From NCBI RefSeq assembly GCF_055900595.2, contig NZ_CM148325.1: 64,000 bases of DNA; one strand, 5' to 3'. Positions 39,345-47,411 of the stretch are shown here, one piece after another (within the stretch, counting starts at the first letter, position 1; each line of letters starts with the position of its first letter). Made by a program: the position numbers and the translations under genes. Below the pieces are notes generated by a model. The model was not told the DNA's origin. It did no database searches and saw only the letters and a program-made list of their open reading frames with translations.

Positions 39345-39527
39345 TCTCTGTAGTGATTAAATAAAAAATACTTCAGAGTGTACCTGCAAAGGTTCACTGC
39401 GAAGTTTTGCTCTTTAAAAATCTGGATCAAGCTGAAAATTGAAACACTGAACAACGAAAGTTGTTCGTGAGTCTCTCAAATTTTCGCAACACGATGATGA
39501 ATCTCAAGAAACATCTTCGGGTTGTGA

Positions 39528-42432
<2,905 letters not shown>

Positions 42433-42525
42433 ACAACGCCGAAGGTGTTTTGGCGGATTGAGAGAAGATTTTCAGCCTGATACAGATTAAATCAGAACGC
42501 AGATGCGGTCTGATGAAACAGAATT

Positions 42526-42645
42526 TGCCTGGCGGCCTTAGCGCGGTGGTCCCACCTGACCCCATGCCGAACTCAGAAGTGAAACGCCGTAGCGCCGATG
42601 GTAGTGTGGGGTCTCCCCATGCGAGAGTAGGGAACTGCCAGGCAT
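42526..42645 (+). rRNA. rrfD: 5S ribosomal RNA (120 nt)
   Basis: TGCCTGGCGGCCTTAGCGCGGTGGTCCCACCTGACCCCATGCCGAACTCAG...GGGAACTGCCAGGCAT. Confidence 0.96.
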
Positions 42646-42796
42646 CAAATTACGAAGAATGGCACTGACCTTTGAGGCAGTTCACTACTCGATAAGAGAG
42701 TAGGACAAAAGCGAAAGCTTTTGAACGTTGCGAAGCAACGGCCCGAAGGGTGAATCGCGAAGTGATTCATAAACTGCCAGGCATCAAATTAAGCGT

Positions 42797-42872
42797 GCTG
42801 ATATGGCTCAGTTGGTAGAGCGCACCCTTGGTAAGGGTGAGGTCCCCAGTTCGACTCTGGGTATCAGCACCA
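42797..42872 (+). tRNA. thrV: tRNA-Thr (anticodon GGT), distal to first 5S
   Basis: GCTGATATGGCTCAGTTGGTAGAGCGCACCCTTGGTAAGGGTGAGGTCCCCAGTTCGACTCTGGGTATCAGCACCA; 76 nt. Confidence 0.95.
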
Positions 42873-42909
42873 CTTTTTAGGTTAAAGTTCGGCAGATTAG
42901 AAAAGAATT

Positions 42910-43029
42910 TGTCTGGCGGCAGTAGCGCGGTGGTCCCACCTGACCCCATGCCGAACTCAGAAGTGAAACGCCGTAGCGCCGATGGTAGTGTGGGGTCTCC
43001 CCATGCGAGAGTAGGGAACTGCCAGACAT
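42910..43029 (+). rRNA. rrfF: Second 5S ribosomal RNA (120 nt)
   Basis: TGTCTGGCGGCAGTAGCGCGGTGGTCCCACCTGACCCCATGCCGAACTCAG...GGGAACTGCCAGACAT; variant of first 5S. Confidence 0.95.
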
Positions 43030-43035
43030 CAAATA

Positions 43036-43076
43036 AAACAAAAGGCTCAGTCGGAAGACTGGGCCTTTTGTTTTAT
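43036..43076 (+). terminator. rrn T1-type rho-independent terminator
   Basis: Long hairpin aaaaggctcagtcggaagactgggcctttt followed by T-rich tract; near-identical to the classical rrnB T1. Confidence 0.85.
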
Positions 43077-43208
43077 CTGTTGTTTGTCGGTGAACACTCT
43101 CCCGAGTAGGACAAATCCGCCGGGAGCGGATTTGAACGTTGCGAAGCAACGGCCCGGAGGGTGGCGGGCAGGACGCCCGCCATAAACTGCCAGACATCAA
43201 ATCAAGCG

Positions 43209-43240
43209 AAAGGCCATCCGAAAGGATGGCCTTTTTGCTT
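43209..43240. terminator. rrn T2-type terminator, also positioned to terminate convergent yhdZ
   Basis: Hairpin aggccatcc-gaaa-ggatggcct flanked by A run upstream and T run downstream; lies between rrfF and the yhdZ stop. Confidence 0.8.
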
Positions 43241-43257
43241 TTCGAACTTACATTCAA

Positions 43258-44016
43258 TTAATGGATCACCTGCGATAAAAATGCCCTCGTACGCTCTGAT
43301 TTAGGATGCGCAAAAAACTCATCCGGTGCAGCTTGTTCCACTATCTCCCCACGATCCATAAAAATCACCCGATCAGCGACGGTTCGCGCAAACCCCATCT
43401 CGTGCGTTACGCACAACATTGTCATACCTGACTGCGCCAGCCCAATCATTGTATCCAGCACTTCTTTCACCATCTCCGGATCGAGCGCAGACGTAGGTTC
43501 GTCAAACAGCATGATCTTTGGTTTCATACAAAGTGAACGTGCTATGGCAACACGTTGCTGCTGACCACCAGAAATCTGTCCCGGAAACTTCTGGGCATGT
43601 TCGGCAATTCTCACCCGCTCAAGGTAATGTATCGCCAGAGCTTCAGCCTCTTTCTTAGGCATCTTGCGTACCCAAATCGGTGCCAGGGTACAGTTCTGTA
43701 GAACGGTCAGATGAGGGAAGAGATTGAAATGCTGAAAGACCATTCCCACTTCCTGCCTGACGCGCTCAATATTGCGGATATCTTCATTAAGTTCGATGCC
43801 ATCCACCACGATCCGTCCCTGTTGATGTTCTTCCAGATGATTAATACAACGAATGGTTGTCGATTTACCGGAACCAGAAGGGCCACACAGAACGATCCGT
43901 TCTCCCGGTTGCACGGTTAAATTTATATTTTTCAAAACATGGAATTGCCCATACCATTTATTGACGTTTTCCAGCGTAATCATCGCGTTAGCAGGTTGCA
44001 GTAAAATTTGGCTCAT
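43258..44016 (-). CDS. yhdZ: Polar amino-acid ABC transporter ATP-binding protein YhdZ (252 aa)
   Basis: Walker [13 protein letters not shown] signature [15 protein letters not shown], Walker [11 protein letters not shown]. Confidence 0.95.
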
Positions 44017-44023
44017 AGTGTCC

Positions 44024-45127
44024 TCAATGCGGTGTACGCCCGGTGTTAAAACGTTTTTCCAGATGTTGGCTATAACGTGACATGCTGAAACAGAAGATCC
44101 AGTAGATCAGCGCGGCGAAAACATACCCTTCCGTCGACATACCCAACCAGGCGGGATCAACGGTTGCCTGCTGAACGCTACTGAAAAGATCGAACAACCC
44201 GATGATGATCACCAGGCTGGTATCTTTGAAGAGTGCGATGATGGTATTTACCAGCCCAGGAATCACCAGCTTCAACGCCTGTGGCAGAATAACCAGCCCC
44301 TGGGTTTTCCAGTAACCCAACGCCAGCGACTCTGCCGCTTCATATTGCCCTTTAGGCAGCGCCTGTAATCCGCCTCGCACGACTTCCGCAACATATGCTG
44401 ACTGAAACAGGATCACGCCAACCAGCGCGCGGATCAATTTGTCGATACTGGTGCCTTCTGCCATAAACAACGGCAGCATGACCGAAGACATAAACAGAAC
44501 GGTAATCAGCGGTACACCGCGCCAGAACTCGATAAAAATGACCGATAAGATACGCACAATCGGCATATGGGAGCGGCGACCTAACGCCAGTAAGATCCCC
44601 CACGGCAGCGCCCCCGCAATCCCAACTGATGCAATAATTAAAGTGAGCGTCAGCCCGCCCCATTGCCTGGTTTCAACCCGTTCAAGACCAAGAAACCCGC
44701 CATACATCAGCCACCAGACAATCAGTGGGTAAATCACCGCCCAGACCGCAATATAGCGACCGCGATGCGGGAGTATTTTCCAGAACATTGGTGCGATAGA
44801 AACAAGGCCAATCAGTAATGCCAGGTTAATTCGCCAGCGTTGGTCGTGTGGGTAAAGCCCATACATAAACTGACCAAATCGTTCGTGGATGAAGACCCAA
44901 CAGGCACCTGCTTTTGTGCAGTCGGCACGCGTTGAGCCAACCCAGTTAGCCTGCAAAAATGCCCAGTTCAGCAATGGTGGGATCAGTTCCCACATCAACC
45001 ATATGCAGCCAATAGTCAGCAGGCTATTGCTCCAGCTGGAGAACAGATTTTTCCGCACCCACACCATCGCGCGGCTTGTGTTATGGCTCGCCGGGCGCGG
45101 GGGATGAGACAGCAATACTTTTGTCAT
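44024..45127 (-). CDS. yhdY: Amino-acid ABC transporter permease YhdY (367 aa)
   Basis: Multi-TM permease; start taken at second Met of the 368-aa ORF ([16 protein letters not shown]...). Confidence 0.92.
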
Positions 45128-45136
45128 CATGACTCC

Positions 45137-46318
45137 TTAGCGTTCAACGATCGCGATGCGGCGGTTATAGATATTCATCAGCAGCGAGATAGTCAGGCTG
45201 ATAATCAGATAGACCGACATGGTCATGGCTATAGTCTCGATGGCTTGCCCCGTCTGGTTTAGTACGGTGCCAGCAAACAGCGAAACCATATCCGGATAGC
45301 CAATAGCGGCGGCAAGAGAGGAGTTTTTGACGATGTTGAGATACTGGCTGGTTAATGGAGGAATAATCACTCGCAGTGCCTGAGGAATAATGACCTGGCG
45401 TAGCGTAACCGGGTTGGGCAATCCCAGTGACCTGGCAGCTTCATGTTGACCATAAGGCACCGCCTGAATCCCGGCGCGGATAATCTCGGCGATAAATGCA
45501 GAGGTATAAACCGAAAGCGCCAGCGTTAAGGCTGCCAGTTCAGGAATTAAAACCATCCCGCCGCGGAAATTAAAACCTTGTAGGGCTGGAACATCCCAGT
45601 GCAGTGCCGCGCCAAAAAGCCATTGCGCCAGTAAAGGCAAGCCAATGATTAATCCAACGGCGAACGGCCAGGTTCGGCGCAGTTGTCCGGTCTTTATCTG
45701 GTGTTTTTTATTAAAGCGATATAGCCCAACAGAAAGGGCTATAGCCATAACAACAGCCAGGATAAATGCAAGGAACCCGTCTCCCAGCTGCGGCGACGGA
45801 ATATAAAGCCCACGATTGCTTAAAAAGGCCAGATCAAACGCACTCACTGCCTGGCGTGGTCCGGGCAAATTGCGCAACACGGCAAAGTACCAGAAGAAGA
45901 TTTGCAGTAGCGGCGGAATATTACGGAAGATCTCAATATAAATTGTGGAAAGCTTTCGTAGCAGCCAGTTATCCGAAAGTCGTGCCAGACCGATAAAGAA
46001 GCCCAGAACAGAAGCGAATACAATACACAATGCAGAAACCAGCAGCGTATTGAGTAAGCCAACAATGAAAACGCGTCCGTAGGTATCACCCTGCTGGTAA
46101 TCGATCAAATGCTGGACAATACCGAAGCCAGCGCCGCGATCCAGAAAGGCAAAACCCGAAGTAATGCCACGATTACTGAGATTCGTCACAGTGTTGTGAA
46201 ATAGCCAACCAACAATGCCGACAACAGCAACAACGGCAAGGATCTGGAATAACCAGGCGCGAACCGTAGGGTTGGCAAAGGAGAGTGAGCCTTTAACGGT
46301 TGAGCGGCGATGAGACAT
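45137..46318 (-). CDS. yhdX: Amino-acid ABC transporter permease YhdX (393 aa)
   Basis: Multi-TM permease; start taken at internal Met (MSHRRSTVKGSLSFANP...), ORF track extends 6 codons upstream. Confidence 0.9.
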   Translation of the reverse strand: MSHRRSTVKGSLSFANPTVRAWLFQILAVVAVVGIVGWLFHNTVTNLSNRGITSGFAFLDRGAGFGIVQHLIDYQQGDTYGRVFIVGLLNTLLVSALCIVFASVLGFFIGLARLSDNWLLRKLSTIYIEIFRNIPPLLQIFFWYFAVLRNLPGPRQAVSAFDLAFLSNRGLYIPSPQLGDGFLAFILAVVMAIALSVGLYRFNKKHQIKTGQLRRTWPFAVGLIIGLPLLAQWLFGAALHWDVPALQGFNFRGGMVLIPELAALTLALSVYTSAFIAEIIRAGIQAVPYGQHEAARSLGLPNPVTLRQVIIPQALRVIIPPLTSQYLNIVKNSSLAAAIGYPDMVSLFAGTVLNQTGQAIETIAMTMSVYLIISLTISLLMNIYNRRIAIVER

Positions 46319-46385
46319 AGAAACCTCGGAAAGCATAACGCTGAAGAGAGCGCCGCCGTAGCGACGCTCGTTACCTCACACCGAC

Positions 46386-47411
46386 TTAACGCACGGGCGG
46401 CGCGTACTGAATACCGCCGTTATTCCAGAGATTATTTTGCCCACGTTTAATCTTCAGGGGGCTTTCTGAACCTACGTTACGCTCAAAAATTTCCGAGTAA
46501 TTACCCACCTGTTTGATGATGTTGTAAGCCCATTTATTATCCAGCTTCAGATCTTTACCGTAATCGCCCTCTTTACCCAGCAGATGCGCCATATCAGGCG
46601 TTGCAGGATTAGCCGCTTTTTCATCAACGTTTTGCGAATTAACGCCCATCTCTTCAGCATTCAGCATGGCGAAAAGCGTCCAGCGCACTATAGAGAACCA
46701 TTCATCATCGCCACGACGAACTACCGGCCCAAGCGGTTCTTTAGAGATAACTTCCGGTAAAACAATCCATTCAGCTGGGTTGCTTAATTTGATGCGCAGG
46801 GCATACAGTTGTGATTGATCCGAGGCCAGCGTATCGCAGCGACCAGATTCCAGTGCCTTCGCGGATTCGTCAGAGCGATCGAAAGTCACTGGTGTGTACT
46901 TCATATTGTTTGCCTTGAAGTAATCGGCGACGTTGAGTTCGGTATCAGTACCCGCCTGAATACAGACTGTTGCGCCATCCAGTTCTTTCGCGCTTTTTAA
47001 TCCCGCTTTATCGTGCGTCAGGAAACCAATGCCGTCATAATAAGTGACGCCAGTAAATGCCATTCCCATACCGGCATCGCGAGAGGAAGTCCAGGTCGTA
47101 TTACGGGAGAGCAAATCCACCTCCCCTGACTGTAAAGCCGTGAAGCGTTCTTTTGCAGTGAGCGGGGTATATTTCACTTTCGTGTCGTCACTAAATACAG
47201 CTGCCGCAACACCACGACAAACATCTACATCAATACCTGAAAACTTACCGTCAGCATCGGCATAAGAGAACCCAGGTAATCCATCACTGATCCCGCATTG
47301 CACAAAACCTTTTTTCTGAACGGCATCAAGCGTCGCGCCAGCATGCGCCTGATTTGCAACGGCAAGCAGCACGCTGGCGGCAGCCAGTGTGGCTATCATC
47401 ATCTTTTTCAT
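46386..47411 (-). CDS. yhdW: Periplasmic amino-acid-binding protein YhdW/AapJ-like (341 aa)
   Basis: Signal peptide MKKMMIATLAAASVLLAVANQAHA followed by type-II substrate-binding fold; first gene of yhdWXYZ. Confidence 0.93.
   Translation of the reverse strand: MKKMMIATLAAASVLLAVANQAHAGATLDAVQKKGFVQCGISDGLPGFSYADADGKFSGIDVDVCRGVAAAVFSDDTKVKYTPLTAKERFTALQSGEVDLLSRNTTWTSSRDAGMGMAFTGVTYYDGIGFLTHDKAGLKSAKELDGATVCIQAGTDTELNVADYFKANNMKYTPVTFDRSDESAKALESGRCDTLASDQSQLYALRIKLSNPAEWIVLPEVISKEPLGPVVRRGDDEWFSIVRWTLFAMLNAEEMGVNSQNVDEKAANPATPDMAHLLGKEGDYGKDLKLDNKWAYNIIKQVGNYSEIFERNVGSESPLKIKRGQNNLWNNGGIQYAPPVR

What the first reader, a model, noticed from the sequence alone, without database searches (positions are those of the whole stretch)
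42646..43257. Duplicated structured modules downstream of both 5S genes with compensatory hairpin changes
After each 5S gene there is a paralogous module of about 100 bp (42698..42794 and 43105..43206): GAGTAGGACAAA - hairpin A - TTGAACGTTGCGAAGCAACGGCCCG(A/G)AGGGTG - hairpin B - CATAAACTGCCAG(G/A)CATCAAAT. The flanks and the palindromic core CGTTGC-GAA-GCAACG are conserved. Hairpins A and B differ completely in sequence between copies yet both still pair (copy 1 AAAGC/GCTTT and GAATC/GATTC; copy 2 ATCCGC/GCGGAT and GGCGGG/CCCGCC). Each module ends with a copy of the 5S 3' terminus. This covariation suggests selection on RNA structure (processing or termination) and documents the duplication that created the second 5S. 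The second copy corresponds to the classical rrnB T1-T2 region; the first is a diverged paralog.
Basis: seen in the sequence. Interest (0 to 1): 0.3.

Follow-up and report, generated by a model that had tools for sequence, protein, structure and literature searches.

The report
tRNA-linked repeat modules after 5S
The two structured ~100-base modules after the 5S rRNA genes are real, but they belong to the long-known "tRNA-linked repeat" family: the second is the published small-RNA gene rrF, and the first is an extra, unannotated copy that most E. coli strains lack.

Summary
Two colinear modules (42698-42791 and 43104-43202) follow the two 5S genes of an rrnD-type operon. They share a near-identical core. 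Their two flanking hairpins differ in sequence but both still pair.

They are not a new kind of element. Both are tRNA-linked repeats (TLRs; Egan & Landy 1978, Rudd 1999). The TLR hallmark, present here, is a 3' end that copies the 3' end of the upstream stable-RNA gene.

Module 2 is 100% identical to E. coli K-12 rrF. That sRNA was mapped and shown to bind Hfq and CsrA in vitro (Stenum et al. 2021).

Module 1 is a TLR that K-12 lacks. It occurs in rrnD of about 9 of 5426 complete E. coli genomes, and after some 5S gene in 568 of them. The same 5S-TLR-tRNA-Thr-5S order occurs in Superficieibacter and Budvicia.

Covariation across 30 family members supports a conserved sense-strand structure.

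The claim that the pair documents the 5S duplication is not supported. The two modules belong to old, distinct subtypes: module 2 has GGA loops, module 1 has GAA(A) loops.

One result may be new. The ~75-nt four-hairpin core also occurs free-standing in Pseudomonas, Stenotrophomonas, Brenneria and Salinicola.

The parts
42526..42645 (+). 5S rRNA gene no. 1 (rrfD position)
   Evidence: Rfam 5S_rRNA, 93.2 bits, at 42528-42643. Mature ends placed by comparison with the K-12 rrfD annotation.
42633..42652 (+). Direct repeat, left copy: the last 13 nt of 5S plus 7 nt of trailer (AACTGCCAGGCATCAAATTA). It contains the 5S-type RNase E site.
   Evidence: family D2. RNase E site position taken from the literature cited in PMC8144298; not tested here.
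42676..42690 (+). Segment complementary to the 5S 3' region (GGCAGTTCACTACTC). It can pair with the real 5S end or with the split copy inside module 1, closing the module.
   Evidence: inverted repeats I3/I4 (93% complementary); fold.
42696..42704 (+). Left half of the split 5S 3' segment (GAGAGTAGG)
   Evidence: Read directly from the sequence. In 5S the run is GAGAGTAGGGAACTGCC.
42706..42768 (+). Module 1 four-hairpin core: hairpin A 42706-42723, central hairpin 42726-42740, mini-hairpin 42741-42751, hairpin B 42752-42768
   Evidence: covariance model R1, 65.8 bits; Rfam RtT 29.9 bits, E=0.001, below the gathering score of 45.
42772..42791 (+). Direct repeat, right copy: right half of the split 5S 3' segment plus trailer (AACTGCCAGGCATCAAATTA). 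This is the TLR hallmark.
   Evidence: D2. The 139-nt spacing equals the indel relative to K-12 rrnD.
42797..42872 (+). tRNA-Thr(GGU) gene (thrV position), 5 nt after the repeat
   Evidence: ARAGORN; Rfam tRNA.
42910..43029 (+). 5S rRNA gene no. 2 (rrfF position)
   Evidence: Rfam 5S_rRNA, 90.2 bits; identical to K-12.
43033..43076 (+). Terminator T1 hairpin. It forms the 5' part of the long RrF transcript.
   Evidence: Terminator scan; fold. T1 read-through of about 13% is reported in PMC8144298, citing Orosz 1991.
43077..43091 (+). Segment complementary to the 5S 3' end/trailer copy at 43186-43200. It forms the closing helix of module 2.
   Evidence: I1/I2; minimum-free-energy fold.
43104..43110 (+). 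Left half of the split 5S 3' segment (GAGTAGG)
   Evidence: D9.
43112..43181 (+). Module 2 (rrF) four-hairpin core: hairpin A 43112-43134 (loop CGGGA), central hairpin 43137-43151, mini-hairpin 43152-43162, hairpin B 43163-43181 (loop AGGAC)
   Evidence: model R1, 84.0 bits; identical to K-12 rrF. GGA loops are the CsrA sites of RrB (PMC8144298).
43185..43202 (+). 18-nt copy of the 5S 3' end plus trailer (AACTGCCAGACATCAAAT): the TLR hallmark. By homology with RrB, the 3' end of the 173-nt RrF lies about 3 nt downstream.
   Evidence: D2. End mapping is taken from PMC8144298 for rrB, not measured here.
43208..43235 (+). Terminator T2
   Evidence: Terminator scan.

Best explanation
Both modules are tRNA-linked repeats (TLRs). 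TLRs are structured RNA modules embedded in stable-RNA operons. Each consists of a conserved four-hairpin core of about 65-75 nt. The core sits inside a split copy of the last ~25 nt of the upstream stable-RNA gene, here 5S: GAGTAGG | core | AACTGCCAGRCAT + trailer. An upstream segment complementary to that copy precedes it.

The modules are transcribed as part of the rrn primary transcript. No promoter-like site is found in 42400-43500. No terminator-like site is found upstream of T1, so none lies between the first 5S gene and tRNA-Thr. The closing helix and the repeated 5S end recreate the context of the 5S 3' RNase E site. The module is therefore cut out of the precursor by the same enzymes that mature 5S and tRNA.

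Module 2 is the published sRNA gene rrF. It is reached by read-through of T1 and yields RNAs of ~173 and ~115 nt. These are short-lived and bind Hfq and CsrA in vitro through GGA motifs in the hairpin loops.

Module 1 is an additional TLR between the first 5S gene and tRNA-Thr. It would be released as a ~139-nt RNA (about 42649-42787). It has only 1 GGA against 6 in module 2, and its loops are of the GAAA/GAA type seen in tRNA-operon TLRs such as RtT. It is probably not a CsrA binder, and it is dispensable in most E. coli.

What is shown: family identity, architecture, structure conservation and the presence/absence pattern. What is inferred: excision by RNase E and RNase P, and the functional difference between the two modules.
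For: Identity of module 2:
- Window 42796-43240 is an exact substring of K-12 rrnD.
- Stenum et al. 2021 (PMC8144298) define the T1-T2 spacers of rrnA, rrnB and rrnD as the TLR-family genes rrA, rrB and rrF. They map the transcript ends and show Hfq and CsrA binding.

Family link:
- Rfam RtT (RF00391) hits both modules below threshold, at 29.9 and 18.8 bits.
- Module 1 is 79/118 identical to the K-12 tyrT-tyrV spacer TLR.
- One covariance model built from 5S-linked and free-standing copies also retrieves tRNA-Tyr-, Lys-, Arg-, Pro- and Gln-linked TLRs at E<=0.004.

Hallmark:
- The 18-20-nt 3' repeat of the upstream gene is present in both modules.
- The same split-gene architecture occurs in tRNA-linked copies. 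There, 8-11 nt of host sequence 5' of the T-loop break lie 63-70 nt upstream of an 18-19-nt 3' repeat.

Structure:
- Fold z-scores are -7.3 and -8.3.
- Covariation on 30 sequences: 16 pairs with double-sided changes, score 0.364 against 0.151 in shuffles (0 of 500 reach it) and 0.07-0.11 in slid controls.
- Hairpin B forms directly after the anchor in 27 of 30 members, with 25 distinct sequences.
- G.U pairs are conserved, so the structure is specific to the sense strand.

Co-transcription: no promoter-like site in 42400-43500, and no terminator-like site upstream of T1.

Presence/absence:
- K-12 rrnD lacks module 1, with the junction exactly at the repeat.
- Module 1 is in rrnD of about 9 of 5426 genomes.
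- It lies after some 5S gene in 568 of 5426. The two cases inspected are rrnH.
- The same gene order occurs in Superficieibacter and Budvicia.

GGA counts: 1 in module 1, 6 in module 2.
Against: - No expression or end-mapping data exist for module 1. Its excision and stability are inferred from rrB.
- Rfam's curated RtT model does not reach its gathering score (45 bits) on either module. By that criterion alone they are not RtT members.
- The published phenotypes of rrA, rrB and rrF are weak and partly paradoxical: deletion and overexpression give similar effects. The biological role even of module 2 is therefore unsettled.
- Module 1 is absent from about 90% of E. coli genomes, which argues against an important function in that species.
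- Free-standing copies of the core lie outside stable-RNA operons, and their orientation relative to neighbouring genes is not uniform. Processing mimicry cannot be the function of the core itself.
Confidence: 0.82

Rival explanations
1. The conserved ~75-nt four-hairpin core is, or once was, a small portable insertion module. It lands inside pre-existing hairpin-forming sequences such as a tRNA T-loop, the 5S 3' region or REP-like palindromes. On this reading the repeated 3' end of the host gene is the displaced half of an interrupted gene copy, not an evolved processing signal, and the structure is conserved because mobility or capture needs it.
For: - The same core sits between GGTTCGA and ATCC...CCA, which are the two halves of a tRNA T-loop, in Tyr-, Lys- and Pro-linked copies. 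Insert lengths are 63-82 nt.
- In Citrobacter L011 the copy follows an almost full-length tRNA-Tyr pseudogene.
- It sits between GAGTAGG and AACTGCC of 5S.
- It sits between the two halves of a SMAG-like palindrome, GTAGAGCCGA[..]CCATGCTCGGCT, at two different Stenotrophomonas loci. A canonical uninterrupted copy lies nearby.
- Free-standing and tandem copies occur in Pseudomonas, Brenneria, Salinicola and Stenotrophomonas.
- Presence/absence polymorphisms are bounded exactly by the repeats.
Against: - No associated transposase or recombinase was identified, and no terminal inverted repeats or target duplications were seen.
- No enrichment on plasmids or phages.
- The indels bounded by 18-20-nt direct repeats are equally well explained by deletion between the repeats or by gene conversion among rrn operons.
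- An upstream segment complementary to the host 3' end is not expected from simple insertion.
- The sampled copy numbers per genome are low.
Confidence: 0.25
2. The modules are purely cis-acting spacer elements for processing or termination of the rrn transcript. They would have no function as free RNAs.
For: - Each module recreates the 5S 3' end and its RNase E context.
- The mapped ends of RrB coincide with or adjoin such sites.
- The RNAs are short-lived, with a half-life of about 2.5 min.
- The deletion phenotypes are weak.
Against: - K-12 processes rrfD-thrV with a 12-nt spacer and no module, so the module is not needed for processing.
- Termination is carried out by the separate T1 and T2 hairpins.
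- The core, including its loop sequences, is conserved outside stable-RNA operons.
- The GGA loops bind CsrA specifically in vitro.
Confidence: 0.3
3. The modules are decayed 5S pseudogenes: remnants of extra tandem 5S copies whose middle has degenerated.
For: - The flanks are 5S-derived (GAGAGTAGG ... AACTGCCAGGCAT).
- The unit is closed by a helix resembling 5S helix I.
- Its length, about 115-140 nt, is close to that of 5S.
Against: - The core has no 5S similarity. Even at E<=10, the Rfam 5S model hits only the true gene in the stretch searched.
- The core is shared with tRNA-linked and free-standing copies that have no 5S flanks.
Confidence: 0.04
4. The hairpin differences are neutral drift after a recent duplication, and the pairing is coincidental.
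For: With only the two window copies, covariation cannot be distinguished from replacement of whole segments.
Against: - Across 30 members, pairing and double-sided changes exceed all 500 shuffles and all slid controls.
- Each hairpin type is conserved with its own compensatory changes across genera (alignment A2).
Confidence: 0.02

Closest known systems
RrA/RrB/RrF sRNAs (genes rrA, rrB, rrF; TLRs between terminators T1 and T2 of E. coli rrnA, rrnB, rrnD; Stenum et al. 2021, PMC8144298)
   Same: Module 2 is rrF itself, identical in sequence to K-12. Position, T1/T2 flanks, the 18-nt 5S 3' repeat, the hairpins and the GGA loops all match.
   Different: Module 1 shares the architecture and core. 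It differs in lying before a tRNA gene with no terminators around it. Its hairpins A and B are unrelated in sequence to rrF's, and it has GAAA/GAA loops instead of GGA loops (1 GGA against 6). It is absent from K-12 and so from the published set.
tRNA-linked repeats / RtT RNA (rttR, tyrT operon 178-bp repeats; Egan & Landy 1978; Rudd 1999; Rfam RF00391)
   Same: The core is shared: AGCGAAAGC..GAACGTTGC-loop-GCAACGGCCCGAAGGGTGA..GCGAAG..ATAA. The architecture is also shared: an upstream complement, a split host 3' segment, and an 18-20-nt copy of the host gene's 3' end.
   Different: The host gene is 5S, not a tRNA, so the flanks differ. The Rfam RtT model scores only 29.9 and 18.8 bits against a gathering score of 45. 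The split point is the junction of 5S helix V and helix I rather than a T-loop.
CsrB/CsrC and RsmX/Y/Z protein-sponge RNAs
   Same: This is a works-like comparison for module 2 and the free-standing GGA-type units. They carry several hairpins presenting (A)NGGA in their loops. The Pseudomonas and Stenotrophomonas hairpin B loops read CAUGGAUG or CAGGGAUG. CsrA binding by RrB is shown in vitro.
   Different: They are much smaller, with 2 loop sites per unit. Affinity is lower than that of CsrB. They are not independently transcribed. Rfam RsmY similarity is insignificant (13.2 bits). Module 1 lacks the GGA loops.
Short intergenic repeats of proteobacteria (REP/BIME, ERIC/IRU, SMAG)
   Same: The free-standing copies of the core are short, structured, intergenic, and sometimes tandem. 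They often lie between a stop codon and a terminator.
   Different: The core is not a single palindrome. It is four consecutive hairpins with a conserved unpaired or mini-hairpin centre. Its structure is strand-specific, with conserved G.U pairs. No RAYT-type transposase association was examined.

Membership tests
tRNA-linked repeats (TLR) | Lies inside a tRNA or rRNA operon, immediately downstream of a stable-RNA gene | tested here: met
   Module 1 starts about 50 nt after 5S no. 1 and ends 5 nt before tRNA-Thr. Module 2 lies between T1 and T2 after 5S no. 2.
tRNA-linked repeats (TLR) | The last 18-19 bp are identical to the 3' end of the upstream tRNA or rRNA gene | tested here: met
   Module 1 has 20 nt (AACTGCCAGGCATCAAATTA, 42772 = 42633). 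Module 2 has 18 nt (AACTGCCAGACATCAAAT, 43185 = 43017). In each, 13 nt lie within mature 5S and the rest is trailer (D2).
tRNA-linked repeats (TLR) | Sequence homology to other TLRs (conserved core) | tested here: met
   79/118 and 76/118 identity to the K-12 tyrT-tyrV TLR. Model R1 links 5S-linked and tRNA-linked copies.
Rfam RtT RNA (RF00391) | Score at or above the curated gathering threshold (45 bits) | tested here: not met
   29.9 bits (E=0.001) and 18.8 bits (E=0.54). tRNA-linked copies from other genomes reach 58-94 bits. The modules are therefore relatives outside the curated family boundary.
RrA/B/F sRNA | Sequence more than 98% identical to K-12 rrA, rrB or rrF, located between T1 and T2 | tested here: met
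   Module 2 only: exact match to K-12 rrnD over 42796-43240, with T1 and T2 present. Module 1 does not meet this.
RrA/B/F sRNA | Discrete processed transcripts (~173 and ~115 nt) that bind Hfq and CsrA | not testable with these tools
   Shown for rrB in PMC8144298. By sequence identity it should hold for module 2. Unknown for module 1.
CsrA/RsmA-binding RNA | Several GGA motifs exposed in hairpin loops | tested here: met
   Module 2 has 6 GGA, including the loops of hairpin A (CGGGA) and hairpin B (AGGAC). For module 1 this is tested and not met: a single GGA at 42703, and not in a hairpin loop.
5S rRNA (pseudo)gene | Similarity to the 5S covariance model beyond the 3' terminal segment | tested here: not met
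   No 5S_rRNA hit on either module, even at E<=10.

The most novel reading that the evidence does not exclude
The TLR core may not be specific to stable-RNA operons or to Enterobacterales. It may be a portable ~75-nt four-hairpin module spread across Gammaproteobacteria. The loci sampled include Pseudomonas, Stenotrophomonas, Salinicola, Brenneria and Zophobihabitans.

It has been captured repeatedly inside hairpin-forming contexts: a tRNA T-loop, the 5S 3' end and SMAG palindromes. It also occurs free-standing or in tandem in intergenic regions, often between a stop codon and a terminator.

In its commonest form both outer loops present Csr/Rsm-type GGA motifs. The module would then be a dispersed, cis-embedded CsrA/RsmA-binding unit. 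The classical TLRs, module 1 included, would be a derived GGA-less form.
Probability: 0.3. Interest if true: 0.55.

Novelty: new member of a known kind. Interest (0 to 1): 0.27.

Why it matters
For the finding as written, the value is mainly housekeeping. It attaches a name (TLR, rrF) and a literature to a sequence that neither the RefSeq annotations inspected here nor Rfam at gathering threshold label. That same sequence sits in thousands of cloning vectors as "rrnB T1T2".

It also adds a strain-variable, GGA-less TLR in rrnD and rrnH to the K-12-based catalogue of 22 TLRs. That gives a natural presence/absence experiment within E. coli for asking what TLRs do.

The wider observation is that the same core exists free-standing, with Csr/Rsm-like loops, in distant gammaproteobacteria. 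If it holds, it could move the 45-year-old question of what TLRs are away from tRNA processing. It would point instead to a portable protein-binding RNA module.

Tried and rejected
- Rfam at gathering threshold on the operon finds only rRNA, tRNA and StyR-44. Nothing is found for the modules.
- The Rfam E-value scan gives only sub-threshold RtT hits; the remaining hits are noise.
About half of the 146 pattern matches were chance hits in high-GC genomes, so it gives no census.
- Using those chance hits as a negative control for hairpin energy was uninformative because of their GC content. Shuffles were used instead.
- MAFFT and the first covariance-model alignment put hairpin B in the wrong register because loop lengths differ. 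The helix-4 figure of 63.6% paired is therefore an underestimate. Per-sequence folds were used for hairpin B.
- The plasmid and phage collections returned only misfiled chromosomal contigs and vector rrnB terminators. There is no evidence of carriage on mobile elements.
- The Rfam E-value scan of the Pseudomonas tandem array gave only an insignificant RsmY hit.
- Bosl & Kersten 1991 (PMC329039) is not held in the library. Whether the rrn-tyrT homology was noted there could not be checked.
- The 5S-pseudogene and neutral-drift readings were considered and rejected (see rival explanations).

Full report
**Context.** The finding lies at the distal end of an rrnD-type ribosomal operon. The order is 16S, tRNA-Ile, tRNA-Ala, 23S, 5S (42526-42645), tRNA-Thr(GGU) (42797-42872) and a second 5S (42910-43029). 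Two intrinsic-terminator hairpins follow, at 43033-43076 (T1) and 43208-43235 (T2). The convergent yhdZ gene comes next. The flanking yhd genes are 99.8% identical to one E. coli genome and only 95-99% identical to most others. The window therefore comes from a divergent Escherichia lineage.

**Observation.**
- GAGTAGGACAAA lies at 42698 and 43104.
- A 33-nt core, 97% identical between copies, lies at 42720 and 43131.
- Copies of the 5S 3' end plus trailer lie at 42772 and 43185.
- Between these conserved blocks, hairpins A and B are unrelated in sequence but each pairs.
- There is also a conserved mini-hairpin, GCCC-GRA-GGGU.

The predicted excised RNAs fold far better than shuffles, with z = -7.3 and -8.3. 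A family covariance model finds only these two sites in the 64 kb, at 65.8 and 84.0 bits.

**What it is.** A permissive Rfam scan gave sub-threshold RtT RNA hits on both modules, at 29.9 and 18.8 bits against a gathering score of 45. RtT is the repeat of the tyrT operon. The K-12 tyrT units share the blocks AGCGAAAGC, GAACGTTGC-loop-GCAACGGCCCGAAGGGTGA, GCGAAG and ATAA with module 1 (79/118 identity). They end in the 3' end of tRNA-Tyr, just as the modules end in the 3' end of 5S.

The literature names this family tRNA-linked repeats (TLRs). K-12 has 22 copies at ten loci. The hallmark is that the last 18-19 bp equal the 3' end of the upstream tRNA or rRNA gene (Egan & Landy 1978 and Rudd 1999, as summarised in PMC8144298).

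The same paper shows that the T1-T2 spacers of rrnA, rrnB and rrnD are the TLR genes rrA, rrB and rrF.
- They are transcribed by read-through of T1.
- They are processed to ~173-nt and ~115-nt RNAs.
- The 5' end lies at the RNase E site 3 nt after 5S.
- The RNAs have a half-life of about 2.5 min.
- They bind Hfq and CsrA in vitro through GGA motifs.
- A LocARNA consensus was built on 30 enterobacterial homologues.

Window 42796-43240 is an exact substring of K-12 rrnD, so module 2 is rrF.

**Module 1 is an extra TLR.** K-12 rrnD goes from rrfD to thrV in 12 nt. Relative to K-12, the window has 139 extra nt bounded by 20-nt direct repeats.
- Only about 9 of 5426 complete E. coli genomes have it in rrnD.
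- 568 of 5426 have this module after some 5S gene.
- In the two cases inspected it lies in rrnH, between 5S and tRNA-Asp, upstream of dkgB.
- No feature is annotated there in any inspected record.

The same module type, with compensatory changes, follows 5S in Superficieibacter, Siccibacter, Budvicia and Salmonella houtenae. The whole order 5S-TLR-tRNA-Thr-5S is present in Superficieibacter and Budvicia. Budvicia also has T1, a diverged second TLR and T2. The window's arrangement is therefore old, and K-12 most simply lost module 1 by deletion between the repeats. Superficieibacter likewise lacks T1 plus TLR2, with the junction exactly at the repeat.

**Structure and covariation.** I collected family members with a pattern scan and built model R1 from 25 of them. 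The 30 best hits were aligned to the model.
- 85.9% of cells pair, against 72.7% in shuffles.
- 16 of 26 pairs show double-sided changes.
- The covariation score is 0.364, against 0.151 in shuffles (0 of 500 reach it) and 0.07-0.11 for slid partners.
- Hairpin A has 7 of 9 pairs with compensatory changes, and the central hairpin 4 of 6.
- Hairpin B suffers from register problems in that alignment. Folded sequence by sequence, it forms right after the anchor in 27 of 30 members, with 25 distinct sequences and 4-6 pair types at positions 2-6.
- Conserved G.U pairs make the structure specific to the sense strand.

**Two subtypes.** Module 2 and most of the wider family carry GGA in the loops of hairpins A and B (CGGGA; AGGAC, AGGGAU, AUGGAU). 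GGA occurs in the hairpin B segment of 22 of the 30 members. Module 1 and its orthologues have GAAA and GAA-type loops, as do the tRNA-linked TLRs. Module 1 has one GGA against six in module 2. The two modules are long-separated subtypes, not products of the event that duplicated 5S. The 5S genes themselves are 96% identical, presumably kept alike by gene conversion (inference).

**Mechanism.** No promoter-like site is found in 42400-43500. No terminator-like site is found upstream of T1, so none lies between 5S no. 1 and tRNA-Thr. Module 1 must therefore be co-transcribed.

Each module is a closed multibranch fold. Its closing helix uses the repeated 5S end and an upstream complementary segment:
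- 42676-42690 pairs with the split copy in module 1.
- 43077-43091 pairs with about 43186-43200 in module 2.

This recreates the 5S 3' context that RNase E uses, as Stenum et al. proposed for rrB. Inference: module 1 is released as a ~139-nt RNA by RNase E at both repeats, and RNase P trims the remaining 9-nt tRNA-Thr leader.

**Architecture beyond the finding.** In tRNA-Tyr-, Lys- and Pro-linked TLRs, 8-11 nt of host sequence just 5' of the T-loop break lie 63-70 nt upstream of the 18-19-nt 3' repeat. A Citrobacter copy follows a nearly full-length tRNA-Tyr pseudogene. In the 5S modules the core sits between GAGTAGG and AACTGCC, which are contiguous in 5S.

The same core also occurs without any RNA-gene flanks:
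- in Pseudomonas, including a three-unit tandem array with a 75-nt period;
- in Brenneria and Salinicola;
- in Stenotrophomonas, where at two loci it sits between the halves of a SMAG-like palindrome.

It is intergenic and often lies between a stop codon and a terminator, but its orientation is not uniform. These copies are not recognised by Rfam and are not enriched on plasmids or phages. This suggests a portable module, but no mobilising gene or clean filled/empty sites were found. I rate that reading at about 0.25-0.3.

**Verdict.** The feature is real and the structural inference is correct, but the kind is known. Module 2 is already published. Module 1 is a new, strain-variable member. 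The duplication story is not supported.

Noticed in passing
L002 1352-1495 (E. coli MFDS1022581, rrnD): The 23S-5S spacer is about 188 nt instead of about 92 nt, with an extra ~100-nt segment of unknown origin. This strain also carries module 1.
   Followed up: no
window 43240-47000 versus 42796-43240: The yhdZ-yhdW flank is only 95-99% identical to most E. coli (99.8% to strain 2020CK-00188). The adjacent thrV-5S-T1-rrF-T2 stretch is 100% identical to K-12. This fits concerted evolution or gene conversion of rrn ends in a divergent Escherichia lineage.
   Followed up: partly
L030 461-510 (Superficieibacter electus): After the second 5S gene the T2-like terminator follows directly. T1 plus the second TLR are missing, with the junction exactly at the 5S 3' repeat. 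This mirrors the absence of module 1 in K-12.
   Followed up: partly
L109 14509-14606 (-) (Brenneria roseae): A GGA-type core unit abuts the 5' end of a 5S gene, so it lies upstream rather than downstream of the stable-RNA gene.
   Followed up: no
L112 6818-7065 versus L122 604-701 (Pseudomonas spp.): Downstream of what appears to be the same ~390-aa ORF (identical sequence upstream of the units), one genome has three tandem 75-nt core units and the other has one. This is copy-number variation of the free-standing form. The hairpin B loops read CAGGGAUG, which is like an RsmA/CsrA site.
   Followed up: partly
L062 783-877 (-) and L070 6086-6181 (+) (Stenotrophomonas): The core is embedded between GTAGAGCCGA and CCATGCTCGGCT, the two halves of a SMAG-like palindrome, at two different loci. 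The stems covary between the two copies.
   Followed up: partly
L018 14700-14904 (-) and L081 2100-2302 (-): In tRNA-Lys operons a GGA-type unit and a classical TLR unit lie back to back. Each is flanked by tRNA-Lys T-loop halves (..GATTCGA | core | ATCCCTGC..GGCAGGTTCGA | core | ATCCTGCACGACCCACCA).
   Followed up: no
window 42732-42734, 42713-42716, 42759-42761: The loops of module 1 sit in GCGAAGC, GCGAAAGC and CGCGAAGUG contexts. From my own knowledge (Hirao et al.), the first two are the sequences known as exceptionally stable DNA mini-hairpins. Whether a single-stranded DNA form matters was not examined.
   Followed up: no
window 39412-39520: Rfam StyR-44 hit (124.9 bits) just upstream of 23S. 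This is the usual enterobacterial rrn spacer element and is unrelated to the finding.
   Followed up: no
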